A stretch of 64,000 nucleotides of DNA from an uncultured Eubacteriales bacterium (lineage in GTDB: Bacteria; Bacillota; Clostridia; Lachnospirales; Lachnospiraceae), in contig ONKP01000005.1 in the NCBI GenBank assembly GCA_900318405.1, forward strand, positions 12,162 through 76,161, read 5' to 3'. Position numbers and translations under genes: made by a program. Of the stretch, positions 42,850 to 64,000 are shown piece after piece. The notes under the pieces were generated by a model. It ran no database searches and was not told the origin of the DNA. It saw nothing but the letters and a program-made list of their open reading frames with translations. The stretch's first letter is position 1. Each line of letters begins with the position of its first letter.

Positions 42850-44245
42850 GCGTGTTACGCATACCGCCAGAACGATCCTCCGTCTGTGGAACGTCGGATG
42901 GTTCCTGATCTTCTGGGTGAAATATTACAACAGGTATATGTTTGATACCTATAAGCTTTTCGGCGCCCTCTTCAGTGCGCTGACGTTCTTTATCATCTAC
43001 AGTGCGCTCTGTAATGTGTACAAGGCATTCCGGATCGCGTCCACGGATGTGTCGGACATTGTTTTTTCCCAGTTTGTATCCTTTGCGGCCGGCGATCTGC
43101 TGCTGTATGTGGAGTGCTCGCTGGTCTACAACCAGATCAGAAATTTCATACCGACGCTCGTGGTCATGGGTATACAGCTGGCGGGGACCAGTTTTTTTTC
43201 ACTGGAGACCAAGCGCTATTTCATGCGCCATGTCGCCCGTCAGAAAACGCTCGTTATTTACGGCGAACAGTCCACGGAGGAGGAAGCAATCAATTTTGAA
43301 AACAGGCTCCTTCACCGCTATAAGCATCTGTTTGACATTCTCTACACCGAATCCGAAAAAATGGATGATGATATATTTCTCCAGAGGCTGCAGGGGGTGG
43401 AGACTGTCATCATGTACAATATCACGCCGGGCCTGAAGATCCGCTTCACCGAACCCTGCATCGAGAACCGGAAAAATTTCTACTTCACGCCGAATATCGA
43501 GGATATCCTGGAGCAGGGAGCGGAGACAAAGCACCTGCTCGACACGCCCATGATGAAATATGAATACAGCTACAACGACCCCAGAAAACTGGTCGTCAAG
43601 CGCATCATGGATGTGATCTTTTCCCTTCTGTTTCTCATCATTCTTTCCCCGGTCATGCTGTTTACCGCGATCGCCATCAAGGCAGAGGACGGCGGCCCCG
43701 TTTTTTACCGTCAGGACCGCTATACCAAAAACGGGAAGATTTTCAGCATGCTGAAATTTCGAAGCATGGTCGTGGATGCGGAGAAAAACGGCGTGCAGCC
43801 CTCTACCGGTGAAAATGACCCGAGAATCACAAAGGTCGGACGATTCATCAGACGCACCAGGATCGATGAGCTGCCACAGTTCATTAACGTTCTGAAGGGT
43901 GATATGAGCTTTGTGGGACCGAGACCCGAGCGCGTGGAACATGTGGATCTGTACGTGCGCGAGATCCCGGAGTTCCGCTATCGTCTCTCTGTTAAGGGCG
44001 GACTGACCGGTTACGCGCAGGTTTACGGCAAATACAATACCTCTGCCTATGACAAGCTGCTCATGGATCTCATGTACATCGAGAACCAGACCACGCTGCT
44101 TGATTTCCGTATCGCCCTGCTCACTGTCCGGACCGTATTCCAGAGGGAAAGTACCGAAGGCTTCGATGAGAATGAGAGCAGACTGATCCACGAGGAAGTT
44201 ACCGGTGAGGATGCCGTGACCGGCAGAAAGCGGGAAGAACCATGA
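42839..44245 (+). CDS. Priming polyprenyl glycosylphosphotransferase (sugar transferase)
   Basis: N-terminal TMs, KRIMDVIFS, FYRQDR, KFRSM, DPRITKVG, RIDELPQ, GDMSFVGPRPE, GLTGYAQV. Confidence 0.93.
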   Translation: MENKRVTHTARTILRLWNVGWFLIFWVKYYNRYMFDTYKLFGALFSALTFFIIYSALCNVYKAFRIASTDVSDIVFSQFVSFAAGDLLLYVECSLVYNQIRNFIPTLVVMGIQLAGTSFFSLETKRYFMRHVARQKTLVIYGEQSTEEEAINFENRLLHRYKHLFDILYTESEKMDDDIFLQRLQGVETVIMYNITPGLKIRFTEPCIENRKNFYFTPNIEDILEQGAETKHLLDTPMMKYEYSYNDPRKLVVKRIMDVIFSLLFLIILSPVMLFTAIAIKAEDGGPVFYRQDRYTKNGKIFSMLKFRSMVVDAEKNGVQPSTGENDPRITKVGRFIRRTRIDELPQFINVLKGDMSFVGPRPERVEHVDLYVREIPEFRYRLSVKGGLTGYAQVYGKYNTSAYDKLLMDLMYIENQTTLLDFRIALLTVRTVFQRESTEGFDENESRLIHEEVTGEDAVTGRKREEP

Positions 44246-50687: not shown

Positions 50688-51647
50688 ATGGTTATCATGC
50701 TTATGAAAAAAAACAAGAAAACAGTTATCTCCTGTATAGCGTTTATCCTGCTGATCATCTGGGTTGTTCTGACCGTTTGGAATAAAGCGGTACCGATTGT
50801 TGAGCAGAAACAGACAGACGGTTCGTTTTCCCTGTTTCCGGGAGAATGGCGATTTACCCGCTGCGCGGGAACATCGGAAAAACAGAGCATGTTCTATTCC
50901 ATTGTTGATGCGAAGGGCAGGCTGGTGCTCATTGACGGCGGATGGGATGAGGCTGGTGATATTGAACAGGTTATGTCTGTGATCCGGGCGCATGACAATC
51001 ATGTGACGGCCTGGATCATAACACACCCGCATCCGGATCACGTGGGCGCATTTAATGGCGTCATCCGCACATATGGCAGTGAAGTTACCATTGATCATAT
51101 TTACACAGTGCCGGTTAACCGGGAACGGTATGAAGAGACCGCACAGGACTATGATGTGCTGAGTGCATACGAGGACTTCCTGCAGCTGACAGAGGGAATG
51201 AACAATATCACTTTTCTCAGGGAAAATGACGAACTTGATCTGATCGGCATGAAGATGAAGGTGCTGCATTCCTGGGACGGGCACACGGACGAATTACAGG
51301 ATCATCTGTGCAATGACGGATCAATGATGTTTCGCCTGACAGGAAGAAAAAACAGCATGTTGTTCTGTGCAGATGTCCAGAAGGAAATGGAACAGTATAT
51401 CCTGCCTGCGCATGAACAGGAGCTGTCATCTGATTTTGTGCAGTGTGCACATCACGGTAACTGGGGACTTTCACAGGAATTTTATGATATCGTCAGCCCG
51501 CAGAGAGCTTTTATCGATGCGCCTGCATCCATCACCGGAGATACAACGGGTACGTATGACTGCCCTTCGCTGATTGCACATCTGCAGGGAAATGGTGTCG
51601 ATGTGGTCACGTGGACGGAACAGCAGTACAACTTCCTGTTCCGATGA
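50688..51647 (+). CDS. Membrane-anchored MBL-fold metallo-hydrolase (ComEC/Pce-like)
   Basis: N-terminal TM, LIDGG, THPHPDHVG (HxHxDH), NDGSM, FCAD, QCAHHG. Confidence 0.87.
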   Translation: MVIMLMKKNKKTVISCIAFILLIIWVVLTVWNKAVPIVEQKQTDGSFSLFPGEWRFTRCAGTSEKQSMFYSIVDAKGRLVLIDGGWDEAGDIEQVMSVIRAHDNHVTAWIITHPHPDHVGAFNGVIRTYGSEVTIDHIYTVPVNRERYEETAQDYDVLSAYEDFLQLTEGMNNITFLRENDELDLIGMKMKVLHSWDGHTDELQDHLCNDGSMMFRLTGRKNSMLFCADVQKEMEQYILPAHEQELSSDFVQCAHHGNWGLSQEFYDIVSPQRAFIDAPASITGDTTGTYDCPSLIAHLQGNGVDVVTWTEQQYNFLFR

Positions 51648-51662
51648 ATAAAGGATACGAAC

Positions 51663-52904
51663 ATGATGATGATTGCTGAGTTCATTCTTTTGCTGGTCTG
51701 GCTGCTGATTCTTCCGATCATGCTTGGCCTGATGTTTTTCCCGGCGTATGCCGCCGGAGGCAGAGACAGAGCGGGATACAGGAACAGGGCAGACAGCAGG
51801 AACAGGCCGGCAGACACAGACAGTGACAGAAAAAAGCCGGGCATTTCAGGAATGATCTGGTGCCTGCTTTCCGGGACGGTGCTGATGTGGGCTGTGTTCG
51901 AACTGATCGCTGTACCGGGTCTGCTCGGTCATATGCGCTTTTCAACAGCTGTCGGTCTGTGGCTGGCGTTTCTGGCGGCGATCCTGATCGTTTACAGTCT
52001 CACGACAAGACGGCTGCCCTTGTGCAGAGATGTGTCTCTGAGAGCGCCGGATGTGCGTTCGTTTTTTCGCAGGCATACACGGGGTATGACACTGCTCACC
52101 TGGATTCTGCTGGCAGCGGTAATCTGTTCCGTGGGATATCAGGTTTGCATGTATATCTTCGGAAGTTACATGGATGCGGATGATTCCCGGTTTGTCGCGG
52201 AGGCAACAGAGGCGTTTCAGCAGAACACAATACTGGAGATGAATCCGGCAACGGGTGTGCAGAGCCGGGACTGGTCGGAGATCACAAAGGATATGCCTTC
52301 GCCCTGGACGATATGGCTGGCACTTCTGTCGCGCCTCAGCTGTATCCATCCGGCAATCTTCAGCCATACGGTCTATGCCCCCTGGCTGCTTCTGCTCTTT
52401 TACGCCATTGTTTTTCTCGGCGGACAGAGACTTTTTCAGAATGATAAAAATAAAGTCCTGCTGTTTGAACTTGTGGCGTCTGTCTGCATGATGTTTTTTG
52501 CCGGATCATCCAGAACGGCAGGAGAGTTTACCCTGCACAGGATATGGCAGGGCAAGGCGACGGTGGCGGGTGTCGGCATTCCTCTGCTTATGCTGGAGCT
52601 CCTGATCCTGTATCAGACAGCAGAAGTCCGTCGGAAGAAAAATGATACGGTTCCGTGGAAAGGCAGTTTTCTGGTGCAGCATCCTTTCCGCGCGTGGCTG
52701 ATTCTTTTTCTCACGGATGCCGGCTGTTGTCTGATGTCCGGTATGGGTGTGATACTGGCGGCGCTGCTGATTGGCGTCGGAGGCCTGTGGTATCTGCTGG
52801 CTTATCGCAGAATTCGTCCGGTACTTGCCATGGCAGCTGCGTGTATACCATCGGCCATCTGCGGCGTTCTGTCGGTGTGGCTGACATCGGCTGGCGTCAG
52901 CTGA
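51663..52904 (+). CDS. Multi-pass membrane protein (DUF6077-like)
   Basis: About 10 TMs; loop motif DADDSRFV, IHPAIFSHT, RIWQGKA. Family recalled from motifs, not searched. Confidence 0.7.
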   Translation: MMMIAEFILLLVWLLILPIMLGLMFFPAYAAGGRDRAGYRNRADSRNRPADTDSDRKKPGISGMIWCLLSGTVLMWAVFELIAVPGLLGHMRFSTAVGLWLAFLAAILIVYSLTTRRLPLCRDVSLRAPDVRSFFRRHTRGMTLLTWILLAAVICSVGYQVCMYIFGSYMDADDSRFVAEATEAFQQNTILEMNPATGVQSRDWSEITKDMPSPWTIWLALLSRLSCIHPAIFSHTVYAPWLLLLFYAIVFLGGQRLFQNDKNKVLLFELVASVCMMFFAGSSRTAGEFTLHRIWQGKATVAGVGIPLLMLELLILYQTAEVRRKKNDTVPWKGSFLVQHPFRAWLILFLTDAGCCLMSGMGVILAALLIGVGGLWYLLAYRRIRPVLAMAAACIPSAICGVLSVWLTSAGVS

Positions 52905-52917
52905 CAGGGGATTGACA

Positions 52918-53694
52918 ATGAAAGATATCATATTCGGGATTTTTTCCATATTGAAAGAGTCCATGGCAGGCAATCTGATCTTTCCCATGTATCTGGTCAG
53001 TCTGGTTTACCTGTTTTTCGCGAAGCCGGAGAAGAGAAGGATCATCATAGGACCGTCCGTGCTGCTAATGCTGGTGATTTTTGCACCGCATCTGTATCAG
53101 TATGTGTATCTGAAAGTGTTCAAATATGCGTACTGGCGGGCATTCTGGCTGATTCCGGCTGTTCCGGTGATCGCCTGCGCAGCCGTGAGCCTGCTGACGG
53201 ATCTTCCGAAAAAATGGATGAAGGCCGCAGCTTCTGCAGCTCTGGCTGTTATCATCTGTATCGGTGGAACGAATGCGTATTCCGCTTATATGACAGACCA
53301 TTTCACACGGGCTGCCAATGCATACAAGATTCCCCAGGCGGTTGTCGACGTGGATAATGCCCTGCTGGCCATGGACAGCAGACCTTATGTGGTCATGCAC
53401 CCGGATCTTTTCTGCTATTCGAGAGTATATTCCTCAAATATTATGCAGATGTATGGAAGAGATGCCTACAGCTTTATTTCTCACAACATCGATGATGAAG
53501 CAAAGAGTGTATTTGACCAGATGAGCAGCGGAAATCCGGATTATGCTTATGTGGCGGATATCATGAGGAAGCGCGGCTATTCATATCTGGTCATCAGGCA
53601 GGACGAAGAGCCGGCTGACGGTGTTATGGAAGCCTGCGGTTTTTCCTTCCGGCAGGCAGCTGACGGCTATCTGATTTATGCACTGGCAGGATAA
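52918..53694 (+). CDS. Hypothetical membrane protein with a C-terminal extracytoplasmic domain
   Basis: About 4 TMs, YWRAFWLIP, NAYKIP, then a soluble domain. Confidence 0.75.
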   Translation: MKDIIFGIFSILKESMAGNLIFPMYLVSLVYLFFAKPEKRRIIIGPSVLLMLVIFAPHLYQYVYLKVFKYAYWRAFWLIPAVPVIACAAVSLLTDLPKKWMKAAASAALAVIICIGGTNAYSAYMTDHFTRAANAYKIPQAVVDVDNALLAMDSRPYVVMHPDLFCYSRVYSSNIMQMYGRDAYSFISHNIDDEAKSVFDQMSSGNPDYAYVADIMRKRGYSYLVIRQDEEPADGVMEACGFSFRQAADGYLIYALAG

Positions 53695-54544: not shown

Positions 54545-55987
54545 ATGATTCGGATGAAGAAAAAAAGTACAATAGTCCGCGTGATCCTGGCTGTTCTGGC
54601 AGTGCTGATCATTGTGGGCGTAATCAAATACAGACCGGGTGAACTGCAGGAGGTCATCAGCCTGGATGTCACCATGTCTTCGCCGAAGGCGGAGGCCTGC
54701 AAAGTGTACTATCTGAAGTCCGGTGAGGAAAACGGGGACTTTAATGAAGACGAAACAGAGCAGGGTTCCTACACCGGCAACGGCGAGATGCAGACGGTGT
54801 CGATCGAGATACCTCTCGACACGGCGGTCATTCGTTTTGATCCTGCGGCGGAAAGCTGCCAGGTGGATATCTCCCGGATTGCGGTCAACCATCGGGGACG
54901 CACGATTTTTTCCCTGTCGCTGGATGATGACGTACAGAACATGGTCAGCATCAATGCGGTGAAGAAGGGAGATGTCTATTCCCTGGACCTCACCAGCAAT
55001 GACGGCTATATCGTATTTCATGCCATTGACCCGGCAGAGACGCAGGCGGGCATTCAGCGGATCGATGAGGAGATCGCAACGGAGCCGCTTTCGGCAGGAC
55101 AGATTGTCCTTCGCGTCCTGGTCTGTGCTGTTGTCGCATTGCTTTTCTTCCTTCTCATATGGAAGTGGAATGCCATATCCTCGATTCCGATCGAGGTCGT
55201 CAGAAACAGGAAGCTGGTCGGCTCTCTCGGCCGCAATGATTTCCGCAATAAATTCGCGGGTTCGTTCTTCGGCACATTCTGGGCCTTTGTACAGCCGGTT
55301 GTGACAATATTTGTCTACTGGTTTGTATTTCAGAGGGCTCTGAACGTGGGAAGTCAGGTGACGAAGGGCGGCATTGAGGTCCCTTATGTACTCTGGCTGC
55401 TGTCCGGTCTTGTTCCCTGGTTCTTTTTCTCTGATGCCATGGGATCGGGCTCGAATGCTCTGATGGAATATACCTATCTGGTAAAAAAGGTCGTATTCCA
55501 TGTCAGCTGCCTGCCGGTGGTGAAGATCCTGTCGAGTCTGTATGTGCATCTGTTCTTTGTTGCATTCACACTGATTATGTATACTGCCTACGGCATGTTC
55601 CCGGGGTGGTTCTCATTTCAGCTGCTGTATTATTCACTGGCCATGCTGATCAATGTGACGGGAGTGGTCTATTTAACGAGCGCCATCGTCGCATTTTTCC
55701 GTGATATGTCTCAGATCGTCAATATCGTTCTTCAGGTCGGCGTGTGGTTCACTCCGATCATGTGGAATATTGATGCGATGAATGTATCCGGTGCGCTTCT
55801 GGTTATTCTGAAGGCCAACCCCATGTATTACATCGTCATGGGATACAGGGATTCTCTCATCAACCACATCTGGTTCTGGCAGAGACCGGCCATCACGCTG
55901 TATTTCTGGCTGGTGACGATCCTGATTTTTATCTGCGGCACACACGTATTCCGCAGACTGCAGCCGCATTTTGCGGACGTGCTTTAA
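54545..55987 (+). CDS. wzm: Polysaccharide ABC transporter permease (Wzm) with an extra N-terminal extracellular domain
   Basis: C-terminal ~270 aa: DFRNKFAGSFFGTFWAFVQP, GLVPWFFF, YLVKKVVF, FRDMSQ, TPIMW, NPMYYIV. Preceded by TM, beta-rich domain and TM. Confidence 0.9.
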   Translation: MIRMKKKSTIVRVILAVLAVLIIVGVIKYRPGELQEVISLDVTMSSPKAEACKVYYLKSGEENGDFNEDETEQGSYTGNGEMQTVSIEIPLDTAVIRFDPAAESCQVDISRIAVNHRGRTIFSLSLDDDVQNMVSINAVKKGDVYSLDLTSNDGYIVFHAIDPAETQAGIQRIDEEIATEPLSAGQIVLRVLVCAVVALLFFLLIWKWNAISSIPIEVVRNRKLVGSLGRNDFRNKFAGSFFGTFWAFVQPVVTIFVYWFVFQRALNVGSQVTKGGIEVPYVLWLLSGLVPWFFFSDAMGSGSNALMEYTYLVKKVVFHVSCLPVVKILSSLYVHLFFVAFTLIMYTAYGMFPGWFSFQLLYYSLAMLINVTGVVYLTSAIVAFFRDMSQIVNIVLQVGVWFTPIMWNIDAMNVSGALLVILKANPMYYIVMGYRDSLINHIWFWQRPAITLYFWLVTILIFICGTHVFRRLQPHFADVL

Positions 55988-56000
55988 GGAGGTATCCGTA

Positions 56001-57356
56001 ATGAGTGATGATTACGCGATCCGCGTCAGCGACGTCAGCAAAATGTACAAGATGTACGCCCGCAAGCAGGACCGCCTGCTGGAGGCGCTCGGCCTGTCAA
56101 AAAAACGCCGCTACACGGAATATTATGCGCTGAATCATGTGAGCTTTGATGTGAAAAAAGGCGAGACCGTCGGTCTGATCGGAACGAACGGCGCCGGAAA
56201 GTCGACGATGCTGAAGATCATCACGGGCGTTCTTCAGCCGACGGGAGGTACGGTGGATATCCGCGGACGGATTTCGGCTCTGCTGGAACTCGGTGCCGGC
56301 TTCAACCCGGAGTACACGGGTGTTGAAAACGTCTATCTGAACGGCACGATGATGGGCTATTCCCGTGCCGAGGTCGATGCAAAAATGAAGGACATCCTCG
56401 ACTTTGCCGATATCGGAGATTTCGTCAATCAGCCCGTCAAGAATTATTCCTCCGGTATGTTTGTGCGGCTGGCCTTCGCCGTCGCCATCAATATCGATCC
56501 GGAGATCCTCATCGTAGATGAAGCACTCTCGGTAGGCGATATATTTTTCCAGGCGAAGTGCTATGCGAAGTTCGATGAATTCAAGCGCGAGGGCAAGACT
56601 ATCCTTCTCGTAAGTCATGACCTCAGTTCCGTGTCCAAATACTGCGACCGTGTCATCCTTCTGAACAAGGGTGAGAAGCTGGCAGAGGGCACGCCGAAGG
56701 ACATGATCAACCTGTATAAGAAGATCCTCACAGGTTCATCAGACGACATTCAGGATCTGACGGAAAACCACAGCGATGAGCTCTCCGGTACGATCAGCAC
56801 AGACCAGCTGCGCGCGGAGCAGAAGAAGACCTACAAGGGCGATTCCATCCGCGAGGGAGCCGATGACAGTGAGGAGTGGAAATCACATTTCGCGATCAAT
56901 CCCAAACTCAATGAGTACGGGAATCACCGCGCGGAGATTGTGGATTTCGCCATTGTCGATGAGAACGGCAACCTGACCAGTACCATTGTCAAGGGAACGA
57001 ACTTTCAGATCCGGACCAAGATCCGGTTCAATGATGATATTAAGGAACCCATATTCACCTACACATTCCGGAATGCGCGCGGTATCGACATCACCGGCAC
57101 GAACACGATGCTGGAGGGAAAAGCAGTGCCGTTTGCACATAAGGGCGAAGTGTATGTGGTCACATACGACCAGCGCATGACGCTGCAGGGCGGTGAATAC
57201 CTGCTGTCGATGAGCTGTACGGGCTACGTCAACGGAAATCTGACAGCTTATCACAGGTGCTATGACCTGCTCAGTGTCTCCGTTGTATCCAATAAAAATA
57301 CAGTCGGATTTTATGATATGGAATCCGTGACCACGGTGAAAAAGGTACTGGATTAA
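56001..57356 (+). CDS. wzt: Polysaccharide ABC transporter ATPase (Wzt) with a C-terminal carbohydrate-binding module
   Basis: GTNGAGKST, LLELGAGF, YSSGMFVRLAF, IVDEALSVGD, plus a ~150-aa Wzt_C-like beta domain. Confidence 0.93.
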   Translation: MSDDYAIRVSDVSKMYKMYARKQDRLLEALGLSKKRRYTEYYALNHVSFDVKKGETVGLIGTNGAGKSTMLKIITGVLQPTGGTVDIRGRISALLELGAGFNPEYTGVENVYLNGTMMGYSRAEVDAKMKDILDFADIGDFVNQPVKNYSSGMFVRLAFAVAINIDPEILIVDEALSVGDIFFQAKCYAKFDEFKREGKTILLVSHDLSSVSKYCDRVILLNKGEKLAEGTPKDMINLYKKILTGSSDDIQDLTENHSDELSGTISTDQLRAEQKKTYKGDSIREGADDSEEWKSHFAINPKLNEYGNHRAEIVDFAIVDENGNLTSTIVKGTNFQIRTKIRFNDDIKEPIFTYTFRNARGIDITGTNTMLEGKAVPFAHKGEVYVVTYDQRMTLQGGEYLLSMSCTGYVNGNLTAYHRCYDLLSVSVVSNKNTVGFYDMESVTTVKKVLD

Positions 57357-57413
57357 ACGTCGACGCGGCAGGTTTAATACAGTACAAAAACATGGTATTT
57401 ACAGAGGAAAGAT

Positions 57414-59780
57414 ATGGACAATCAGGATTTGCGGCAGGAAGTGCCGGACAACACGGATGCCGTGACGGAGCTTTCGGAGAACGCGGATACCGCAGCAGAG
57501 CCTGCAAAGAAGGATGCTGCGGATGCCGGGCCGGAGCTTTCGGAGAACGTGGATACCGCAGCAGAGCCTGCAAAGAAGGATGCTGCGGATGCCGGGCCGG
57601 AACTTTCCGATAAAGAGAAAAAAATACTGGCGGTCATTGAGGGTGAGCCGGAAGAGAGATACGCAGCCGTGACATGGGAACGGAAGGATCCGGATCTTCT
57701 CTATCAGCTCTCCCCCTGGCGTGCCAACCTTCTGAACTGGCTGCCCATACACGGGACAGACCGCGTGCTGGAGATGCAGGCCGGATATGGCCCGGCCACT
57801 GCTGATCTGGCGGGACGGGCTGCGGAAGTCGTATGCCTTGAACAGACCGAAGGCCATTATGTGATCAACAGCAGGCGTCAGCAGTCGCGTCACAATGTGG
57901 AATGCGGTATCTGGAATCTTGCCGGAGATGATATCCAGGTTCAGAAGTACCTGAAAAAGGAAGGAACGGATACATCCGAACAGGTGCGCAAGTTTGACTG
58001 GGTGATCATCTATCGTCCGGAATCCACGCTCAGTCTCCGGTCAGATCTGGAGCTCGCGTCAGCCTTTGTCGAAAAAAACGGCAGGATCGTTCTTGCTGTC
58101 GACAACAGTCACGGCATGCGCACGCGCGACGGCGCACCGGCCCCGCACGGTTCGGCGACCAGACAGGAGCTGAAAAAACTCTTCGATGAGCTCGGCATGC
58201 AGGCACAGGTATATTATCCGTACCAGAGCCTTGAATTCACGGACAGCGTTTATACAGACCGTTTCCTTCCCAGAAGCGAGGAACTCGGGCTGTATGAGCA
58301 GGGCTTTTTCCGGCCGCGCATCTGCTGGTGCGATGAACAGGAAGAGTATGCCTATGCGCTGGAGAACGGCCTGTATCCGGAAGTGGCCAATGCTTTTCTC
58401 TGTATTCTGACGCCGCCGGCCGGTGGAAGCAGAACGGCGGCGATGCCGCTCTTCACCTCAGAATCCGGAGGTGTCGTCACACAGAAGGATGCGGATGACG
58501 GAAAACATCCTGAGGTCAGTGCGGACAACGGCACGCAGAAGCATGCGGATGACGAAAGCGGAGCGGAGAACGGCGGAAGCCAGAACGCGCAGAAGGGTAC
58601 GGATGCCGGAAAGAAAACGGATGGCCGTGTGGAAGCGGTTTCTCCGGCGGCCCGGCGATATCCGATCTATGTTAAGTTCTCCAATCAGAGAAAAGCCGGT
58701 TTCAATACGGTGACATCGATATATGAAGATGATAACGGCCAGCGTCAGGTCTTTAAACGTGCGTTTGATGAGGCGTCAAGGAGCTGGGTGACCGGCATCG
58801 CGTCAAAATATCTGAAGCTTGCCGCTGCCTTTGAGGGAACGGGTTTTCTGATCAACCGCTGCAGCAGAAATGCGGAAGGCATTGAACTGGAGTATGTGAC
58901 GGGAAAATCCCTGGACACGGTGCTGGACATGTGTCTGGAGAACGGGCGGCCTGATCTGGCGGAGCTGCTGATCGATGAGTACTGGCGCCGGCTGACGGCC
59001 GGACATCCGATGGGGATTTTTACACCGTCCCCTGAATACCGTGAGATTTTCGGCGAACAGATGGTGGGAGAGAATGAGGCGGCACTGCCGGTCACGAATA
59101 TCGACATGATCTTCTCCAACATTCTTTTGCCGGAAACACTAAGTATGCGGGAACTCATCGATGATATCGATGAGGTAAAGAAGGAGAAGTGGGACGTCAT
59201 CGATTACGAGTGGACATTTCCTTTTCCCATTCCCGTCCGCTATGTGATGTACAGAGCGCTTGATTATTTTCAGAATTATCGCGCCGGCAGGAAAAAATTT
59301 GTCGGTCCGCTCTTTGCCAGATACGGTATCCGTACGGAAGACATGCAGATCTATGCCGCCATGGAGAGCGAATTCCAGAAATGGATCCTCGGTGACACGC
59401 ATCCGATCCGTCTGCATAACAGCGTTTACGGAAAGCCCAGTATGGGCTTCCGCCAGGTGGAAAATGATTATTTCAGGTTAAGGGAGGAATTTCCCGCGGC
59501 GCAGAGCGAACTGCAGACGCTGCGTGAAACAGAGGAAAAGCTCCGGAAAGAATTACAGGATGCACAGGAACAGAACAGCAGCCTGAACGAACAGCTGGAA
59601 TCCCTGCAGAAAGATTATGACAGTGAGCATGAGAAAGTGGAAAAGCTGGACGCATCCTGCGTCAGCCTGTCGGAAACCGTCAATCAGATGAGGGGAGCTT
59701 TTTCCTGGAAGGTGACGGCTCCCATGCGGGCGGTCATGACATTTTTCCGCAGGATTTTTCACAGAAACCCTGAACATTGA
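57414..59780 (+). CDS. Methyltransferase-like + kinase-like + coiled-coil protein (WbdD-like candidate)
   Basis: NLLNWLP..RVLEMQAGYG (degenerate SAM motif), YVKFSN, IDMIFSN (DxxxxN), VIDYEW (DxE), ~70-aa heptad region and terminal SWKVTAPMR helix. Confidence 0.7.
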   Translation: MDNQDLRQEVPDNTDAVTELSENADTAAEPAKKDAADAGPELSENVDTAAEPAKKDAADAGPELSDKEKKILAVIEGEPEERYAAVTWERKDPDLLYQLSPWRANLLNWLPIHGTDRVLEMQAGYGPATADLAGRAAEVVCLEQTEGHYVINSRRQQSRHNVECGIWNLAGDDIQVQKYLKKEGTDTSEQVRKFDWVIIYRPESTLSLRSDLELASAFVEKNGRIVLAVDNSHGMRTRDGAPAPHGSATRQELKKLFDELGMQAQVYYPYQSLEFTDSVYTDRFLPRSEELGLYEQGFFRPRICWCDEQEEYAYALENGLYPEVANAFLCILTPPAGGSRTAAMPLFTSESGGVVTQKDADDGKHPEVSADNGTQKHADDESGAENGGSQNAQKGTDAGKKTDGRVEAVSPAARRYPIYVKFSNQRKAGFNTVTSIYEDDNGQRQVFKRAFDEASRSWVTGIASKYLKLAAAFEGTGFLINRCSRNAEGIELEYVTGKSLDTVLDMCLENGRPDLAELLIDEYWRRLTAGHPMGIFTPSPEYREIFGEQMVGENEAALPVTNIDMIFSNILLPETLSMRELIDDIDEVKKEKWDVIDYEWTFPFPIPVRYVMYRALDYFQNYRAGRKKFVGPLFARYGIRTEDMQIYAAMESEFQKWILGDTHPIRLHNSVYGKPSMGFRQVENDYFRLREEFPAAQSELQTLRETEEKLRKELQDAQEQNSSLNEQLESLQKDYDSEHEKVEKLDASCVSLSETVNQMRGAFSWKVTAPMRAVMTFFRRIFHRNPEH
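57455..57607 (+). repeat. 66-bp tandem repeat (about 2.2 copies)
   Basis: ggagctttc/ggaactttc at 57467, 57533 and 57599. Unit ELSENADTAAEPAKKDAADAGP. Confidence 0.9.
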
Positions 59781-59794
59781 GAGGTACAACGGGT

Positions 59795-62329
59795 ATGAAG
59801 CCGATTTATTATCACATTGATGAACACAGGATCGCAGGATCCGGCCATCTTTTCTACCGCGTTCTGGGCTGGGCTTTCTCCACCACGCCGGAAAATCTGA
59901 AAATCAGCGTCAGAGATGCGAAGGGAGAGGATATCCCGTTCAGCGTTCATGACACCGTGCGCGATGATGTCTTCCGGGCATATCATGATAAATATGACGG
60001 CCTGACACCGGATGTCGGCCTGGATATCCGGGTGGAGCATCTGCAGGATGTCATTCGGGAGCATGGCAATAAGATCAGCATTTGTTTTTCCAGCGGGGAT
60101 GAAGAGGAGACAGCATCGACGGAAGATGTACAGGCACTGCTGTCCGCTGTCGACATGGATAAGCCGGCAGCCCATGTGGATAACTGGGTCACCGCAGAGG
60201 GAATGGTATGGATCAACGGCTGGACCTATGCGCGCAGCGGAGCCTGCAGCGTGAAGATTACCGATGCCGACGGAAATGAGATCCCGTGCACAACTGACCG
60301 GAGCAAGAGAATCGATCTCTGTCGTCTGGAAGGATTGTCCATGAATGATACGCCGGGCTTTCAGATCCGTATCAGGCAGGACGATGTCAGAGGAATGAAG
60401 AAAATTTATCTCCACTGCTGCTCCGAGAAGCAGGATGAGACCATTGAGCTGGATATCACGCCCGGAGCAAAACGGAACAAGAGCACCCGCGGGTTTATTC
60501 GCCATGTCATCGAGTATACAAGGAGAAACGGTGTCTCAGGTCTGATTCGCCGCGCCATCCATGGCCCTGCTGTGGCGCAGAATTTTGATTATGATACCTG
60601 GTTCCGTGCCCGTCGTGTGACGGAGACAGAACTGGAAAAACAGCGCGCCGCACATTTTTCCTGTGAGCCGAAGATATCGGTATGCATACCGCTGTACAAC
60701 ACACGACCGGAGTTCCTGCGGGATATTGTCAATTCCATACTCGCTCAGTCCTATCAGAACTGGGAGCTTTGTCTCGCTGACGGCAGCACAACGGACGAAC
60801 CGGGCCGCATTGTGGCAGACGAGTACGGAAATGAGCCGAGGATCCGCTATCAGAAACTGGCGGTCAATGCCGGCATTTCGGGAAATACGAATGCAGCGCT
60901 GAAGATGGCAACGGGTGATTTTATCATGCTTTCCGACCACGATGATCTGGTGGAAGCGGATGCCATGTACGAGATCGTCAGAGCCATCAATCAGTCGCCG
61001 GATGTCGATGTGGTTTATACTGATGAGGATGTTGTCAATGAACAGGGCACGGTATTTTATGACCCTCATCTCAAGCCGGATTTTTCCATTGACTATCTCA
61101 TGAGCCTGAACTACATCACGCATATTTTTGTTGCAAGGAAGAGCATCGTGGATGAGACCGGCGGATTCGGCGATGCATATAACGGCGCGCAGGACTGGGA
61201 TATGATCCTCCGCTGCTGTGAAAAAGCCAGACGCGTGGCGCACGTGCCGAAGATCCTCTATCACTGGAGAGCGTCCAGTGGCTCTACGGCGGGCAATCCC
61301 GACAGCAAAATGTATGCTGTGGATGCAGGGCGGCGCGCGGTCGGCGATTATATGCAGCGAAACGGACTGGACGGCAGACTCGAGTACACGCTCGACTTTA
61401 TCTGCTTCCATCCGATCCTTTCCGTGAAAAAGGATCCGAAGGTTTCCATTATCATCTGCAGCTGTGACCATGCGGATCTGCTGAAAACCTGTATTGACTC
61501 CATTCTGAGCAAGAGCACGTATGATAATTACGAGATTCTTGTTGTGGAAAATAACAGTAAAGAGCAGGCGACCTTTGACTATTACGAGAAGATACAGAAG
61601 GAAGATTCCCGTGTCCGTGTCGTGACGTATACGGAAAAAGGACCTTTCAATTATTCCCGGGTCAATAATTTCGGCGCGGCACAGGCAGACGGAGAATATC
61701 TCATCTTCCTGAACAACGATACGAAGGTGATCTCCAGGGACTGGATCGAGGGCATGCTCGGCTACTGCCAGCGACCTGACGTCGGAATCGTCGGCGCAAA
61801 GCTGTATTACGGCGATCTCACGGTTCAGCACTGCGGGATTGTCATCGGTATGGGCGGATTTGCCGGGCATGTACTGACAGGACAGCCGGCGGACAGCGCC
61901 GGGTATATGATGCTGCTGCATGCGACGCACGATGTCAGTGCGGTGACGGCAGCCTGCATGATGACAAAGAAGCAGGTATTTGACGAGGTCGGCGGATTCA
62001 CAGAGGAACTGCGTCTGGCCCTGAATGACGTTGACTACTGCCTGAAGGTAAGAGAGACCGGAAAGCTTGTCGTGGTCGATGTGGCGGTGGAACTGTATCA
62101 CTTTGAATCCAAGAGCCGGGGCTATGAGGACACACCGGAGCGTAAGGAACGGTTCAAGAACGAGATACGCCTCTTCAGGAAACGCTGGAAGAAGATTCTG
62201 GATGAAGGAGATCCTTATTACAACCCGAATCTCTCCCTGATGTATAATGACTATCGCCTTCGCGAGGACAATGAGCATTTCGATATCATCGATGAGATTG
62301 AGGCGGAAGACGAACTCAGCGGCAGATAA
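59795..62329 (+). CDS. Large glycosyltransferase with two GT2 domains and N-terminal accessory domains
   Basis: GT2 domain 1 (IPLYNT, LADGS, LSDHDD, GAQDWD) and GT2 domain 2 (VVENNS, FNYSRVNN, FLNND, AVTAAC, NDVDYC). Confidence 0.9.
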   Translation: MKPIYYHIDEHRIAGSGHLFYRVLGWAFSTTPENLKISVRDAKGEDIPFSVHDTVRDDVFRAYHDKYDGLTPDVGLDIRVEHLQDVIREHGNKISICFSSGDEEETASTEDVQALLSAVDMDKPAAHVDNWVTAEGMVWINGWTYARSGACSVKITDADGNEIPCTTDRSKRIDLCRLEGLSMNDTPGFQIRIRQDDVRGMKKIYLHCCSEKQDETIELDITPGAKRNKSTRGFIRHVIEYTRRNGVSGLIRRAIHGPAVAQNFDYDTWFRARRVTETELEKQRAAHFSCEPKISVCIPLYNTRPEFLRDIVNSILAQSYQNWELCLADGSTTDEPGRIVADEYGNEPRIRYQKLAVNAGISGNTNAALKMATGDFIMLSDHDDLVEADAMYEIVRAINQSPDVDVVYTDEDVVNEQGTVFYDPHLKPDFSIDYLMSLNYITHIFVARKSIVDETGGFGDAYNGAQDWDMILRCCEKARRVAHVPKILYHWRASSGSTAGNPDSKMYAVDAGRRAVGDYMQRNGLDGRLEYTLDFICFHPILSVKKDPKVSIIICSCDHADLLKTCIDSILSKSTYDNYEILVVENNSKEQATFDYYEKIQKEDSRVRVVTYTEKGPFNYSRVNNFGAAQADGEYLIFLNNDTKVISRDWIEGMLGYCQRPDVGIVGAKLYYGDLTVQHCGIVIGMGGFAGHVLTGQPADSAGYMMLLHATHDVSAVTAACMMTKKQVFDEVGGFTEELRLALNDVDYCLKVRETGKLVVVDVAVELYHFESKSRGYEDTPERKERFKNEIRLFRKRWKKILDEGDPYYNPNLSLMYNDYRLREDNEHFDIIDEIEAEDELSGR

Positions 62330-62432
62330 CGCTCCGGATCAGTGCCTGCAGGCGCAGGTCTGTGCAGCGGCGGCAGAGGAATGTCAGATGATGCGGCTCT
62401 GGCGAGAATAAAAATAACCGAAGACAGGGCAT

Positions 62433-64000
62433 ATGATGAAAAAAATGGCAAATATCCTGAGGAAGGCTGCTGCCGGTACGGCGGCTGTGCTTCTCATGAC
62501 AGTACTCAGCGGTGTATCCGGACTGGGTACGACGACAGCACTGGCTGAACCCGGCACGACTGGAGAAGATGCCGTAACTGCGGCATCCGACACAGCGGAC
62601 ACGGTTGTGTCAGGCGACAATGAAACGACAGCAGCTGACGCTGCACAGAGTGACGCAGATGTTGCAACGGTATCATCTGACACCGCGCAGAGTGACACAG
62701 ATGATGAAACAGCATCATCTGATACTGCGCAGAGTGATACAGATGATGAAACGGAGTATCTGACCGATTATCTGAAGTTCAGCCGGGAGGACCTCGTAAG
62801 CTATCTCTATGCCCATATGGATACCTTTGTCGGAACGCCTTATCATGAGAGCCTCTACGAATTTCCGACGCCCGGAGAAGATGGGCATATGCAGTGCGAG
62901 GGATTCGTCTGGTATGTTCTGCACGAGGTAGCAACAGAAAATTCCGACAATATTCCCTGCGGTGATGCGAGCACGGAGCCCTATGGGAACGCCGGCGGAT
63001 GGGTCAACTGGCTGTTCAGCTCCGGCGTGAAATTTGAAGCATACGATACCATAGATGACATGCTGGCCTCCGGCACCATGCGCAAGGGTGATATTATATG
63101 GCTCTTTGATGCAGGCGGTCCGTACGCCATGTCGGACACACATCACACCGGATTTTTCTGGGGCGATACAGCAGATGATGATAAATTCTGGCATTCAAGC
63201 GCACTTGCGCTTTCTGATACCTATGCAGGAGAAGAAGCAGAGAACCGCATATCGAAGATTGAAGGAATGACAGAAGAATCCAATATCTCCGAAATCTGGG
63301 TGATTCATCTGGATTCGAGCGGCGGGACGTCATCAACCGCCCGTTCAGGGGAAGAAGTGATCGCAGCCAGAAGAGGCATAGCTGTTAACGACACAGACAG
63401 CACCGCCGGAGGACAACAGGCCACAGACGGTTCAACTGATACAATTGATACGGAAAAGGCACTGTCGGATGTCTCTGCCTATGCCGGCGTTTTTGATGCG
63501 GACTGGTATCGAAGTCAGCTCGATGCCGGCATGGCTGAGCAGAATGCCTCCTATCAGGTCACTGTCGGCGGCACGGACTATACCATACCCCGCGGTGACG
63601 TGTCCGCCGATGATATGACAGACGCGGAGCTTCTGCAGTATTTTCTGCTGTCGGGCGTCTGGTATGGCGATCAGGCGTCACCGGATTTTGACATTACCTG
63701 GTACATGCAGCAGTATCCGGAAAGTGAAGCTGCTGGGAACCGCCTGGCGTATATCCGTCATTACCTGGAGGAAGGAATGGCGGCCGGAGAACAGGGCGTG
63801 GGGGAGCGTGCGACAGATGAGACACTTTCCGCCGTATCCGCATCGACGGATACAGCATCTGACGGAACGGGATTCGGTGATAACGTCCTGTCAGTCAGTC
63901 TTCCGTCATCCGCTCCGGCATCTGCACAGAGCGGTGTATCCGCGAAAAACATTCTCAGGATCATCTGCGTGCTCGCGTTTGCGGCTGCGATTATCCTGCG
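62433..64000 (+). CDS. Secreted NlpC/P60-like cysteine hydrolase with C-terminal anchor, 3'-truncated by the window edge (not in the ORF track)
   Basis: Frame 3 is open from ATG 62433 to the end. Signal peptide, acidic linker, GTPY...QCEGFV...KGDIIW...HTGFF...WHS, two FDxxWY repeats, hydrophobic helix at the window end. Confidence 0.7.
   Translation, partial: MMKKMANILRKAAAGTAAVLLMTVLSGVSGLGTTTALAEPGTTGEDAVTAASDTADTVVSGDNETTAADAAQSDADVATVSSDTAQSDTDDETASSDTAQSDTDDETEYLTDYLKFSREDLVSYLYAHMDTFVGTPYHESLYEFPTPGEDGHMQCEGFVWYVLHEVATENSDNIPCGDASTEPYGNAGGWVNWLFSSGVKFEAYDTIDDMLASGTMRKGDIIWLFDAGGPYAMSDTHHTGFFWGDTADDDKFWHSSALALSDTYAGEEAENRISKIEGMTEESNISEIWVIHLDSSGGTSSTARSGEEVIAARRGIAVNDTDSTAGGQQATDGSTDTIDTEKALSDVSAYAGVFDADWYRSQLDAGMAEQNASYQVTVGGTDYTIPRGDVSADDMTDAELLQYFLLSGVWYGDQASPDFDITWYMQQYPESEAAGNRLAYIRHYLEEGMAAGEQGVGERATDETLSAVSASTDTASDGTGFGDNVLSVSLPSSAPASAQSGVSAKNILRIICVLAFAAAIIL
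62631..62756 (+). repeat. 42-bp tandem repeat (2 good copies plus 1 degenerate)
   Basis: tcatctga at 62673 and 62715. Unit SSDTAQSDTDDETA. Confidence 0.85.

What the first reader, a model, noticed from the sequence alone, without database searches (positions are those of the whole stretch)
55971..59780. WbdD-like chain terminator and molecular ruler in a Firmicute rhamnan ABC-export locus
Seen: directly after a Wzt with a C-terminal binding module lies a 788-aa protein. It has an MTase-like domain, a kinase-like domain with DxxxxN (IDMIFSN) and DxE (IDYEW), a ~70-aa coiled coil and an amphipathic SWKVTAPMR tail. Established: E. coli O9a WbdD has the order methyltransferase-kinase-coiled coil-membrane helix, caps the glycan, sets chain length, and the cap is read by the Wzt C-terminal module. 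Inference: this is an analogous terminator for a Gram-positive wall or S-layer glycan. The SAM motif reads EMQAGYG, with Gln where the first Gly is expected, while the kinase residues look intact. The cap may therefore be phosphate only.
Basis: partly seen in the sequence, partly recalled or inferred. Interest (0 to 1): 0.72.

Follow-up and report, generated by a model that had tools for sequence, protein, structure and literature searches.

The report
Glycan chain-capping kinase with coiled-coil ruler
A gut Lachnospiraceae bacterium encodes, right after its polysaccharide export pump, a protein that most likely stops sugar-chain growth by phosphorylating the chain end; it looks like a Gram-positive relative of a terminator recently described in Klebsiella, and its methyltransferase half looks degenerate.

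Summary
ORF 57414-59780 (788 aa) follows Wzm and a Wzt with a Wzt_C module. It has a class I methyltransferase fold, a protein-kinase-like fold with Lys448, Asp564, Asn569, Asp597 and Glu599, a 10-heptad coiled coil and a basic amphipathic tail.

"WbdD-like" is right for function and architecture but not for family. No sequence link to WbdD was found, and WbdD is absent from the top 50 fold matches of either model.

The protein belongs to a large family with no Pfam or NCBIfam model for the kinase domain. Its DYEWTFxF motif occurs in 531 species genomes. In 80 of 80 loci examined the methyltransferase is fused to the kinase or lies just upstream. In 77 of 80 a Wzt with a related C-terminal module lies upstream.

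The closest characterised system is Klebsiella pneumoniae O7 ORF6 (JBC 2024), which caps terminal rhamnose with methyl-phosphate. Homology to it rests on architecture and residue spacing only.

In the window's clade the methyltransferase has lost 14 of 22 family-conserved positions, while the kinase signature is intact. A phosphate-only cap is plausible but unproven.

Verdict: a new Gram-positive variant of a known kind.

The parts
54545..55987 (+). Wzm permease (480 aa). ABC2_membrane domain at residues 227-437, preceded by a roughly 215-aa N-terminal extension.
   Evidence: Pfam PF01061, E=3.4e-14. The extension is weakly similar to the post-kinase beta domain of family members.
55971..57356 (+). 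Wzt ATPase (461 aa): nucleotide-binding domain plus C-terminal module.
   Evidence: ABC_tran E=7e-25 and Wzt_C E=1.8e-39. Best PDB match is Aquifex WzmWzt 8dku/7k2t, E about 1e-82.
56910..57320 (+). Wzt_C carbohydrate-binding module (residues 314-450), the presumed reader of the chain-end cap.
   Evidence: PF14524 covers 3-143 of 143 profile positions. A homologous module lies upstream of the kinase gene in 77 of 80 loci.
57414..59780 (+). The 788-aa terminator candidate: methyltransferase-like domain, linker, kinase-like domain, coiled coil, amphipathic tail.
   Evidence: Ribosome-binding site GAGGAAAG upstream of the ATG.
57454..57607 (+). 66-bp tandem repeat, 2.3 copies, encoding a 22-aa repeat in the N-terminal extension that precedes the modelled region.
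   Evidence: Tandem Repeats Finder score 280, 95% matches. Absent from the homologue in L007, the 98%-match locus from the same lineage.
57609..58427 (+). Class I SAM methyltransferase-fold domain (residues 66-338), probably catalytically degenerate.
   Evidence: PDB profile hit 5wp5, E=9e-6. Foldseek top 50 hits are all methyltransferases. hhalign 99.7-99.8% to stand-alone methyltransferases of split loci. Deviates at 14 of 22 family-conserved sites.
57765..57791 (+). Motif I, VLEMQAGYG (residues 118-126). Gln122 replaces the family's first Gly.
   Evidence: The family has Gly in 90% of members at this column. Coordinates verified.
58428..58655 (+). Low-complexity, disordered inter-domain linker (residues 339-414).
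   Evidence: pLDDT below 50 in model residues 280-341. Length varies among homologues.
58656..59453 (+). Protein-kinase-like (APH/Rio-type) domain, residues 415-680.
   Evidence: AlphaFold2 pLDDT 92. Foldseek matches APH(3'), Mph(2'), Rio and Cph001 with probability 1.0. 199 homologues found.
58755..58757 (+). Lys448, the candidate ATP-binding Lys on the third beta strand.
   Evidence: Invariant in 89 sequences. Lies on strand E40-46 of the model.
59103..59120 (+). Catalytic-loop motif D564-M-I-F-S-N569.
   Evidence: Asp and Asn are invariant. The K/D/N/D/E pattern is intact in 210 of 235 sequences.
59202..59210 (+). D597-Y-E599, the DFG-equivalent metal-binding motif (IDYEW).
   Evidence: Invariant. 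DYEWTFxF found in 531 species genomes.
59481..59699 (+). Coiled coil, residues 690-762, 10 heptads (about 100 Å).
   Evidence: Single heptad register, 16 of 20 a/d positions hydrophobic. 68-residue helix in the model. Gaps of 7 and 14 residues within the coiled coil among close homologues.
59700..59777 (+). Basic amphipathic C-terminal helix, FSWKVTAPMRAVMTFFRRIFHRNPEH.
   Evidence: Hydrophobic moment 0.60. A W[KR] motif after the coiled coil occurs in 93 of 193 family C-termini; in long fusion proteins the W[KR]xTxPxR motif lies at residues 726-781, ahead of the GT2 domains that start near 808-846.
59795..62329 (+). Two-module GT2 glycosyltransferase, the candidate polymerase, with a roughly 290-aa N-terminal region. 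The ORF listing TTG start at 59777 is probably not the true start.
   Evidence: Two Glycos_transf_2 domains, E=1.7e-44. GAGAGG ribosome-binding site before the ATG at 59795. Some relatives fuse this gene to the methyltransferase-kinase module.

Best explanation
The 788-aa protein is the chain terminator and length ruler of an ABC-transporter-dependent, rhamnose-containing cell-surface glycan in a Lachnospiraceae bacterium.

Proposed mechanism (inferred unless marked otherwise):
1. The glycan is built on a polyprenyl carrier at the cytoplasmic face of the membrane. A WbaP-type initiator (42788-44245) starts it. The downstream two-module GT2 enzyme extends it.
2. The terminator is held at the membrane, or on the polymerase, by its basic amphipathic tail.
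3. Its 10-heptad coiled coil places the catalytic head about 100 Å away, so only chains of a minimum length reach it.
4. The APH-like kinase domain transfers phosphate from ATP to a hydroxyl of the non-reducing terminal sugar. The catalytic residues would be Lys448, Asp564, Asn569, Asp597 and Glu599. This blocks further extension.
5. The cap is recognised by the Wzt C-terminal module, which licenses export.

In canonical family members the methyltransferase would then methylate the phosphate, as shown for K. pneumoniae O7 ORF6 and E. coli O9a WbdD. In the window's clade the methyltransferase fold is kept, but most family-conserved pocket residues are lost. The cap is therefore most likely phosphate alone, with the domain kept for a structural or substrate-binding role.

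What is shown: the folds, the conserved residues, the conserved gene neighbourhood and the fusions. What is inferred: kinase activity on the glycan, the chemistry of the cap, the ruler role and the membrane anchoring.
For: **Architecture and folds.**

**Kinase residues.** They are invariant in 89 sequences. The full pattern is kept in 210 of 235 family sequences.

**Gene neighbourhood.** In 80 loci from different species, the methyltransferase is fused to the kinase domain in 52 and lies immediately upstream in 28. A Wzt with a homologous C-terminal module lies upstream on the same strand in 77; the other three loci have too little (or no) upstream sequence to tell. Individual loci L001 and L004-L006 show the order Wzm, Wzt(Wzt_C), methyltransferase, kinase.

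**Split and fused forms are homologous.** Stand-alone methyltransferases from split loci match the window's N domain over its full length (hhalign 99.7-99.8%).

**Fusions to the polymerase.** Relatives of more than 1200 aa fuse methyltransferase, kinase, the W[KR]xTxPxR motif and two GT2 domains. P0256 fuses the methyltransferase-kinase module to the N-region and GT2 of the window's downstream gene type.

**Characterised counterpart.** K. pneumoniae O7 ORF6 has a methyltransferase, an unannotated AmiN/APH-like kinase with catalytic D441, a coiled coil and two GT2 rhamnosyltransferase modules. It caps O-3 of terminal rhamnose with methyl-phosphate, and the D441A mutant blocks export (PMC11231755). 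Its published landmark residues Y66, G91, G93, E112, Y158 and D441 fall at this family's typical spacings:
- Tyr to the first Gly is 25 residues in 153 of 154 sequences.
- The first Gly to the Glu is 21 residues in 153 of 154.
- The first Gly to the later Tyr is 67-69 residues.
- The first Gly to the catalytic Asp has a mode of 350 residues.

**Phosphate alone can terminate.** This is stated for WbdD in PMC3482155.

**Methyltransferase degeneration.**
- The window deviates at 14 of 22 family-conserved sites.
- Sequences with a degenerate motif I deviate at a mean of 10.0 of 20 other sites, against 1.4 for canonical ones.
- Two conserved loops are deleted.
- No Pfam methyltransferase model hits the window protein, while canonical members are hit.
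- Degeneration arose at least 8 times on a kinase-domain tree.
Against: - No biochemical data exist for any Firmicute member.
It rests on architecture and residue spacing.
- The window protein lacks the Ig-like/beta domain that follows the kinase in ORF6(O7) and in canonical family members.
- The alpha-C His conserved in 215 of 235 kinase domains is Trp458 here, so full kinase competence is not certain.
- The methyltransferase-like domain is more conserved within the clade (77% mean column identity) than the kinase domain (64%). It also keeps the second and third motif-I Gly residues and the acidic residue after the second beta strand. It may therefore still bind SAM.
- From my own knowledge, active methyltransferases with a non-Gly first motif-I position exist (RumA; its DLFCGMG motif is visible).
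- The glycan, its acceptor (wall, S-layer protein or lipid) and the oligomeric state of the coiled coil are unknown.
Confidence: 0.72

Rival explanations
1. Same terminator role, but the methyltransferase domain is still active. The cap would be methyl-phosphate, as in K. pneumoniae O7 and E. coli O9a. The divergent pocket would reflect a re-tuned rather than a lost SAM or acceptor site.
For: - The domain is strongly conserved within the clade: 77% mean column identity, higher than the kinase domain.
- It keeps G124, G126 and E143, and the Rossmann topology is kept in the model.
- Motif I with a bulky first residue occurs in RumA (DLFCGMG in the alignment), which I know to be an active enzyme.
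Against: - 14 of 22 family-conserved positions are lost, including the post-beta-4 E-Y pair, the EDH...F.G.EGY loop and the PDYK motif.
- No Pfam methyltransferase model reaches E below 0.01.
- The same pattern of loss recurs independently in at least 8 clades. This looks like relaxed catalytic constraint.
Confidence: 0.22
2. The protein is a true WbdD orthologue, that is, a member of the E. coli O9a / Klebsiella O3 WbdD family moved into a Firmicute.
For: The domain order is the same: methyltransferase, kinase, coiled coil, amphipathic helix. The position next to a Wzt with a carbohydrate-binding module is also the same (PMC3482155).
Against: - No WbdD chain appeared in PDB sequence searches with the protein or with profiles of either domain at E up to 10.
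- WbdD is not in the top 50 Foldseek hits of either model.
- The kinase domain here is closest to APH, Mph and Rio, whereas WbdD's is described as Src-like.
- The N domain is about 270 aa with a family-specific C-terminal subdomain. WbdD's methyltransferase is 210 aa.
Confidence: 0.03
3. The protein is not a terminator. The kinase-like domain would phosphorylate a small molecule, for example a choline/ethanolamine-type precursor for glycan decoration or an antibiotic. Alternatively it is an inactive scaffold, and the link to Wzt is only operon co-membership.
For: - The fold class (APH / choline-kinase-like) is dominated by small-molecule kinases.
- The alpha-C His is replaced in the window clade.
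- No direct activity data exist.
Against: - The position immediately downstream of a Wzt with a C-terminal module holds in 77 of 80 species loci.
- The domain is always paired with the methyltransferase, fused or adjacent.
- It is fused to a coiled coil and to polymerase GT2 modules.
- The one studied enzyme of this architecture phosphorylates the glycan terminus.
- The K/D/N/D/E signature is intact.
Confidence: 0.05

Closest known systems
Klebsiella pneumoniae O7 ORF6, N-terminal methyltransferase-kinase terminator (Kelly et al., J Biol Chem 2024; PMC11231755)
   Same: - An N-terminal class I methyltransferase is followed by a kinase of about 220-260 aa that domain databases do not annotate. 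That kinase is APH/AmiN-like.
- A coiled coil follows.
- It is associated with two GT2 (rhamnosyl)transferase modules, rml genes and a Wzt carrying a carbohydrate-binding module.
- Its landmark residues Y66, G91, G93, E112, Y158 and D441 sit at this family's typical spacings.
- Firmicute relatives with the identical single-polypeptide layout exist.
   Different: - The window protein is a separate polypeptide from the GT2-GT2 enzyme.
- It lacks the Ig-like domain between kinase and coiled coil.
- Its methyltransferase site is degenerate (Gln at the G91-equivalent position; the Y158-equivalent is deleted).
- The host is Gram-positive.
- Direct sequence homology could not be computed here.
E. coli O9a / K. 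pneumoniae O3 WbdD (PDB 4AZS series; PMC3482155)
   Same: - Same order: methyltransferase, kinase, coiled-coil ruler, C-terminal membrane-associated amphipathic helix.
- It is a separate polypeptide from the polymerase.
- The cap is read by the Wzt carbohydrate-binding module.
- Phosphorylation alone suffices to stop extension.
   Different: - No detectable sequence similarity.
- WbdD's kinase is Src-like and its methyltransferase is shorter (210 aa).
- Its substrate is polymannose.
- Its hosts are Proteobacteria.
Geobacillus stearothermophilus NRS 2004/3a WsaE (S-layer glycan; PMC2943079)
   Same: - A Gram-positive, ABC-transporter-dependent poly-L-rhamnan pathway with a WbaP-type initiator.
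- Gene order wzm, wzt, then terminator/polymerase.
- An N-terminal methyltransferase caps the terminal rhamnose.
- Two rhamnosyltransferase modules are present.
   Different: WsaE is described with a methyltransferase and two glycosyltransferase domains only, with no kinase domain. Its cap is 2-O-methyl, not phosphate-based. According to the review, methylation in vitro was independent of chain length.
APH(3') aminoglycoside and Mph(2') macrolide phosphotransferases; Rio kinases
   Same: Best structural matches of the kinase domain (probability 1.0, TM 0.4-0.57). The Lys ... D-x4-N ... D pattern is shared.
   Different: Only 11-14% identity. Those enzymes act on small molecules or proteins. 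They have no methyltransferase, coiled coil or glycan-export context.

Membership tests
WbdD (E. coli O9a-type bifunctional terminator) | Detectable sequence homology to the WbdD methyltransferase and kinase domains | tested here: not met
   PDB sequence and profile searches with the whole protein and with alignments A2, A3 and A4 at E up to 10 returned no WbdD chain.
WbdD (E. coli O9a-type bifunctional terminator) | Kinase domain of the eukaryotic (Src-like) protein kinase type | tested here: inconclusive
   The fold is protein-kinase-like, but the best matches are APH, Mph and Rio. SYK and ABL appear lower in the list, with TM about 0.33. WbdD itself is not in the top 50.
WbdD (E. coli O9a-type bifunctional terminator) | Order methyltransferase, kinase, extended coiled coil, C-terminal amphipathic membrane helix | tested here: met
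   AlphaFold2 model and heptad / hydrophobic-moment analysis.
WbdD (E. coli O9a-type bifunctional terminator) | Encoded with a Wzt that carries a cap-binding C-terminal module | tested here: met
   Wzt_C E=1.8e-39 in the gene immediately upstream. Conserved in 77 of 80 loci.
K. pneumoniae O7 ORF6-N type methyltransferase-kinase terminators | Direct sequence homology to ORF6(O7) | not testable with these tools
K. pneumoniae O7 ORF6-N type methyltransferase-kinase terminators | Methyltransferase with SAM-site landmarks Y66, G91, G93, E112 and Y158 at fixed spacing | tested here: inconclusive
   The wider family matches the spacing: Tyr+25, Gly+2, Gly+21 and Gly+67 to 69. The window protein keeps the equivalents of Y66, G93 and E112 (Y97, G124, E143). 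It has Gln122 for G91 and lacks the Y158 equivalent.
K. pneumoniae O7 ORF6-N type methyltransferase-kinase terminators | Unannotated APH/AmiN-like kinase domain directly after the methyltransferase, with a catalytic Asp | tested here: met
   Foldseek matches the APH family. Asp564 is invariant. The family's modal distance from the first Gly to the catalytic Asp is 350 residues, equal to D441 minus G91.
K. pneumoniae O7 ORF6-N type methyltransferase-kinase terminators | Ig-like (CBM-type) domain between kinase and coiled coil | tested here: not met
   The kinase domain runs straight into the coiled coil. Canonical relatives do have a beta domain there. Weakly similar segments sit instead in the Wzm N-extension and the GT N-region.
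K. pneumoniae O7 ORF6-N type methyltransferase-kinase terminators | Coiled coil linking the terminator to GT2 polymerase modules (fused or adjacent) | tested here: met
   A 10-heptad coiled coil. The GT2-GT2 gene starts 15 nt downstream. Fused versions exist in relatives.
K. pneumoniae O7 ORF6-N type methyltransferase-kinase terminators | Phosphorylates, then methylates, the non-reducing terminal sugar; required for export | not testable with these tools
   Needs enzyme assays, mutants and glycan NMR/MS.
Class I SAM-dependent methyltransferases (active enzymes) | Gly-rich motif I (E/DxGxGxG) and an acidic residue at the end of the second beta strand | tested here: inconclusive
   E120-M-Q122-A-G124-Y-G126: the first Gly is replaced. 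The acidic residue E143 is kept. No Pfam methyltransferase model hits at E below 0.01.

The most novel reading that the evidence does not exclude
In this clade the methyltransferase half may have become a conserved pseudoenzyme, so the Wzt module would read a bare phosphate cap. The same loss of methyltransferase residues, with the kinase signature largely kept (17 of 21 degenerate members that carry a kinase domain), arose at least 8 times in the family. Switching between methyl-phosphate and phosphate caps, with co-evolving Wzt readers, could therefore be a recurrent way for gut Lachnospiraceae to diversify the ends of their surface glycans. The retained methyltransferase fold might serve as an acceptor clamp or an assembly scaffold.
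Probability: 0.35. Interest if true: 0.65.

Novelty: new variant of a known kind. Interest (0 to 1): 0.55.

Why it matters
Chain termination coupled to export quality control has been worked out almost only in Gram-negative O antigens. The one Gram-positive precedent I found is the methyl cap of a Geobacillus S-layer glycan.

This locus shows that a methyltransferase-kinase terminator family is common in Lachnospiraceae such as Blautia, Fusicatenibacter and Robinsoniella, which are abundant in the gut. At best it is annotated as 'methyltransferase', and it has no domain model for its kinase half. It occurs in 531 species genomes.

This gives a concrete, testable handle on how these commensals set the length and end-chemistry of their surface polysaccharides. 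Those features plausibly matter for immune recognition and phage adsorption.

It also provides natural split, fused and methyltransferase-degenerate variants for dissecting the ruler mechanism.

Tried and rejected
- **Pfam and NCBIfam on the 788-aa protein.** Only coiled-coil noise was returned.
- **PDB sequence searches for the kinase domain.** Searches with the single sequence, the 5-sequence profile and the 89-sequence profile found nothing meaningful.
- **Word-index homologue search with the N-domain profile.** It returned nothing because unrelated candidates flooded the index. The exhaustive search solved this.
- **Foldseek with the two-domain model.** I hoped it would rank WbdD first. 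Instead generic methyltransferases filled the top 50.
- **tblastn of the kinase domain against plasmids.** I was looking for annotated proteobacterial relatives. There was no match.
- **Supplement of PMC11231755.** It holds no ORF6(O7) sequence or alignment text.
- **Literature searches.** I looked for a described Firmicute methyltransferase-kinase terminator and for a glucorhamnan link and found none.
- **Region 62330-64000.** I considered an RNA gene or a pseudogene. There is no Rfam hit. The apparent lack of an ORF arises because the homologue of the 526-aa L007 protein would run off the window end.
- **Single Gly-to-Gln change as proof of inactivity.** I rejected this because an active methyltransferase family shows the same deviation (RumA, from my own knowledge).

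Full report
**1. The observation**

The finding's coordinates cover two genes.
- The first, 55971-57356, encodes a 461-aa Wzt. It has an ABC ATPase domain and a C-terminal Wzt_C module (PF14524, E=1.8e-39, residues 314-450). Its best solved relative is the Aquifex aeolicus WzmWzt transporter that carries a carbohydrate-binding domain (8dku/7k2t, E about 1e-82).
- The second, 57414-59780, encodes a 788-aa protein behind a GAGGAAAG ribosome-binding site.

- VLEMQAGYG at residues 118-126
- IDMIFSN with D564 and N569
- IDYEW with D597 and E599
- a coiled coil at residues 690-762
- the tail FSWKVTAPMRAVMTFFRRIFHRNPEH

**2. What the domains are**

Pfam and NCBIfam see only coiled-coil noise in this protein.

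*N domain.*
- A profile of the N domain from the five closest homologues (alignment A3) hits plant phosphoethanolamine N-methyltransferases in the PDB (E=9e-6). VLEMQAGYG aligns to VLELGAGIG.
- An AlphaFold2 model of residues 60-788 (pLDDT 84) shows a Rossmann-type domain. All of its top 50 Foldseek hits are class I SAM methyltransferases.

*Middle domain.*
- It has no sequence match to any solved structure, even with an 89-sequence profile.
- It models with high confidence (pLDDT 92, pTM 0.88).
- The model matches aminoglycoside 3'-phosphotransferases, macrolide 2'-phosphotransferases, capreomycin phosphotransferase and Rio kinases, at probability 1.0 and TM about 0.4-0.57. It is therefore a protein-kinase-like fold of the APH type.
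- Twelve positions are invariant in the 89 homologues. They include Lys448 on the third strand, Asp564 and Asn569 five residues apart, and Asp597 and Glu599. In the family consensus the Asn-to-Asp distance is 12 residues; the window clade carries an insertion there.

*C-terminal region.*
- After the kinase domain the model gives one 68-residue helix and then a 20-residue helix.
- The first helix keeps a single heptad register over 10 heptads, with 16 of 20 a/d positions hydrophobic.
- The second helix has the second-highest hydrophobic moment in the protein and is rich in Arg and Lys.
- Within the coiled coil, close homologues differ by gaps of 7 and 14 residues, which preserves the heptad phase. 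A further 7-residue gap lies just before it.

**3. The family and its context**

*Source organism.* The window comes from a Lachnospiraceae MAG. L007 matches the kinase-domain query at 98% identity.

*Kinase-domain family.* The kinase domain defines a family with 199 hits in the word-index search. Most are proteins of about 430 aa that begin with the kinase domain.

*Split loci.*
- In three unrelated loci the gene order is Wzm, Wzt(Wzt_C), a roughly 300-aa methyltransferase, then the kinase protein. The three are an unnamed metagenome contig, a Roseburia contig and Romboutsia lituseburensis.
- Those stand-alone methyltransferases are full-length homologues of the window's N domain (hhalign probability 99.7-99.8%).

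*N-domain family.* An exhaustive profile search with the N domain found 1828 cluster representatives at E ≤ 0.001. Of the top 148 representatives other than the query clade's own, 110 also carry the kinase domain directly after the methyltransferase.

*Genome scan.*
- A scan of one genome per species found the DYEWTFxF motif in 531 genomes. The best 80 are almost all Lachnospiraceae, including Blautia, Robinsoniella, Fusicatenibacter and Lacrimispora.
- In those 80 loci the methyltransferase is fused in 52 and immediately upstream in 28.
- A Wzt with a C-terminal module homologous to the window's lies upstream on the same strand in 77.
- The three exceptions have too little (or no) upstream sequence to tell.

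*The window locus.* Its order is WbaP-type initiator, GT4, RmlA, RmlB, RmlD, two GT2 genes, a metallo-beta-lactamase-fold protein, DUF6077, a membrane protein, RmlC, Wzm, Wzt, the terminator and a GT2-GT2 protein. It is syntenic with the locus of homologue P0004.

**4. Comparison with what is known**

*WbdD.*
- WbdD of E. coli O9a has the order methyltransferase (1-210), kinase (211-459), coiled coil and C-terminal membrane region.
- It phosphorylates and then methylates the terminal mannose.
- Its cap is needed for recognition by the Wzt carbohydrate-binding module, and phosphorylation alone suffices to terminate (PMC3482155).
- The window protein works on the same plan, but I found no evidence that it belongs to that family. 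No WbdD chain appears in any PDB sequence search or among the top 50 fold matches.

*K. pneumoniae O7 ORF6.*
- This is a much closer counterpart (PMC11231755).
- It has an N-terminal methyltransferase and an 'unannotated 223 AA' domain. That domain is an AmiN/APH-like kinase with catalytic D441.
- An Ig-like domain, a coiled coil and two GT2 rhamnosyltransferase modules follow.
- It puts methyl-phosphate on O-3 of the terminal rhamnose, and the D441A mutant abolishes export.
- The authors stress that it differs from WbdD in sequence and structure. They found orthologues in alpha- and gammaproteobacteria and in cyanobacteria.

*Indirect tests of the link to ORF6(O7).* I could not obtain its sequence, so I used two indirect tests.
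- The published landmark residues fit the family's spacings. Y66 to G91 is 25 residues, as in 153 of 154 family sequences. G91 to E112 is 21, as in 153 of 154. G91 to Y158 is 67, against 67-69 in the family. G91 to D441 is 350, which is the family mode.
- Firmicute members of more than 1200 aa have the same single-chain layout: methyltransferase, kinase, W[KR]xTxPxR motif, GT2, GT2.

*Canonical 730-aa members.* They carry a beta domain and a shorter coiled coil after the kinase and end in ...MENTKVWKAYRKY. This again matches the ORF6-N layout.

I therefore file the window protein as a probable member of the ORF6(O7)-N type family, with direct homology still to be computed. It is a functional analogue of WbdD, not a member of that family.

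*Gram-positive precedent.* WsaE of Geobacillus stearothermophilus combines a methyltransferase with two rhamnosyltransferase modules. It makes a 2-O-methyl cap in a wzm-wzt locus with a WbaP-type initiator (PMC2943079). The review describes no kinase domain in it.

**5. Is the methyltransferase half alive?**

RumA reads DLFCGMG at the same place in the alignment, and I know it to be an active enzyme. The family comparison is more telling.

*Evidence for degeneration.*
- Ninety per cent of members have Gly at that position, mostly as VLE[IV]G[SA]GCG.
- The window clade also lacks several other family-conserved elements:
  - the conserved Gly-Asn-Phe after strand 3
  - the Gly-Val-x-Glu-Tyr after strand 4
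  - the K-Y...E-D-H...F-x-G-x-E-G-Y loop, which is partly deleted
  - the P-D-Y-K motif
- Overall it deviates at 14 of 22 family-conserved sites.
- Across 154 sequences, the 116 with a canonical motif I deviate at a mean of 1.4 of 20 other conserved sites. The 38 with a degenerate motif I deviate at a mean of 10.0.
- On a neighbour-joining tree of kinase domains, the degenerate state needs at least 8 independent origins.
- The kinase signature stays intact in 17 of the 21 degenerate members that carry a kinase domain.

*Evidence against simple decay.*
- The N domain is more conserved within the clade than the kinase domain, at 77% against 64% mean column identity.
- It keeps G124, G126 and E143.

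My reading is that the domain has probably lost methyl transfer but is retained for another role. A phosphate-only cap is plausible, at roughly 60% given that the protein is a terminator.

*One caveat on the kinase side.* The alpha-C His conserved in 215 of 235 kinase domains is Trp458 here.

**6. Differences in layout**

- The window clade has no beta domain after the kinase.
- Segments weakly similar to the post-kinase domains of relatives occur instead in the roughly 215-aa N-terminal extension of Wzm.
- They also occur in the roughly 290-aa N-terminal region of the GT2-GT2 protein.
- P0256 fuses the methyltransferase-kinase module directly to that region plus a GT2.
- These matches are weak, at E about 1e-8 to 1e-3 in a set of about 250 sequences. 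I treat them as leads.

**7. Verdict**

- The phosphate-only idea is strengthened but not proven.
- The system is a new, Gram-positive, split and methyltransferase-degenerate variant of a known kind of terminator.
- The broader result is that a large Lachnospiraceae family of methyltransferase-kinase terminators exists. Databases call its members 'methyltransferase' or 'hypothetical protein'.

Noticed in passing
window 57454-57607: A 66-bp tandem repeat (2.3 copies, 95% matches) encodes a 22-aa acidic, Ala-rich repeat in the N-terminal extension of the terminator that precedes the modelled region. The homologue in L007, the 98%-match locus from the same lineage, lacks 44 aa here, so this is a strain-level expansion.
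   Followed up: yes
window 54545-55190 (Wzm residues 1-215): Wzm carries an unusual N-terminal extension: a hydrophobic helix, a beta-rich segment containing IRFDPAAESCQVDISRIAV, then a second hydrophobic helix. The segment is weakly similar to the beta domain that follows the kinase in canonical family members (phmmer E 2e-6 to 1e-3 in a small set). Wzm of L001 and L004 is also long (477 and 461 aa), whereas Wzm of L005 and L006 is 262-277 aa.
   Followed up: partly
window 59795-60670 (GT residues 1-290): The GT2-GT2 protein has a roughly 290-aa N-terminal region of unknown function. Residues 126-240 resemble the post-kinase domains of some relatives. P0256 (1256 aa) fuses the methyltransferase-kinase module directly to this region plus a GT2.
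   Followed up: partly
window 58785-58787 (Trp458): The alpha-C His conserved in 215 of 235 kinase domains of the family is Trp or Phe in the window clade. The consequence for activity is unknown.
   Followed up: partly
family-wide (P0126-P0273; L007-L086): Degenerate methyltransferase motif I occurs in about a quarter of cluster representatives (variants QAG, NAE, HAE, GAE and others). It needs at least 8 independent origins on a kinase-domain tree. The Roseburia stand-alone methyltransferase in L005 reads VLERNAECG.
   Followed up: yes
window 50688-53694: Three genes sit between the GT2 genes and rmlC: a metallo-beta-lactamase-fold protein, a DUF6077 membrane protein (413 aa, E=4.6e-76) and a 260-aa membrane protein with no Pfam hit. 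The same trio is conserved in L001, and DUF6077 recurs in the Roseburia locus L005. Their role in the glycan pathway is unknown.
   Followed up: no
L001 17240-20601: In the syntenic Eubacteriales locus the cluster continues with a HypF/Sua5-type (carbamoyltransferase-like) protein of 748 aa and a UDP-galactopyranose mutase. This hints at carbamoyl or galactofuranose decoration there. An extra 722-aa GT2 also sits between terminator and polymerase and is absent from the window.
   Followed up: no
window 62330-64000: No ORF is listed here and there is no Rfam hit. The reason is that the homologue of a 526-aa secreted, acidic-repeat protein seen in L007 would run off the window end, so this is not a real gap.
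   Followed up: yes
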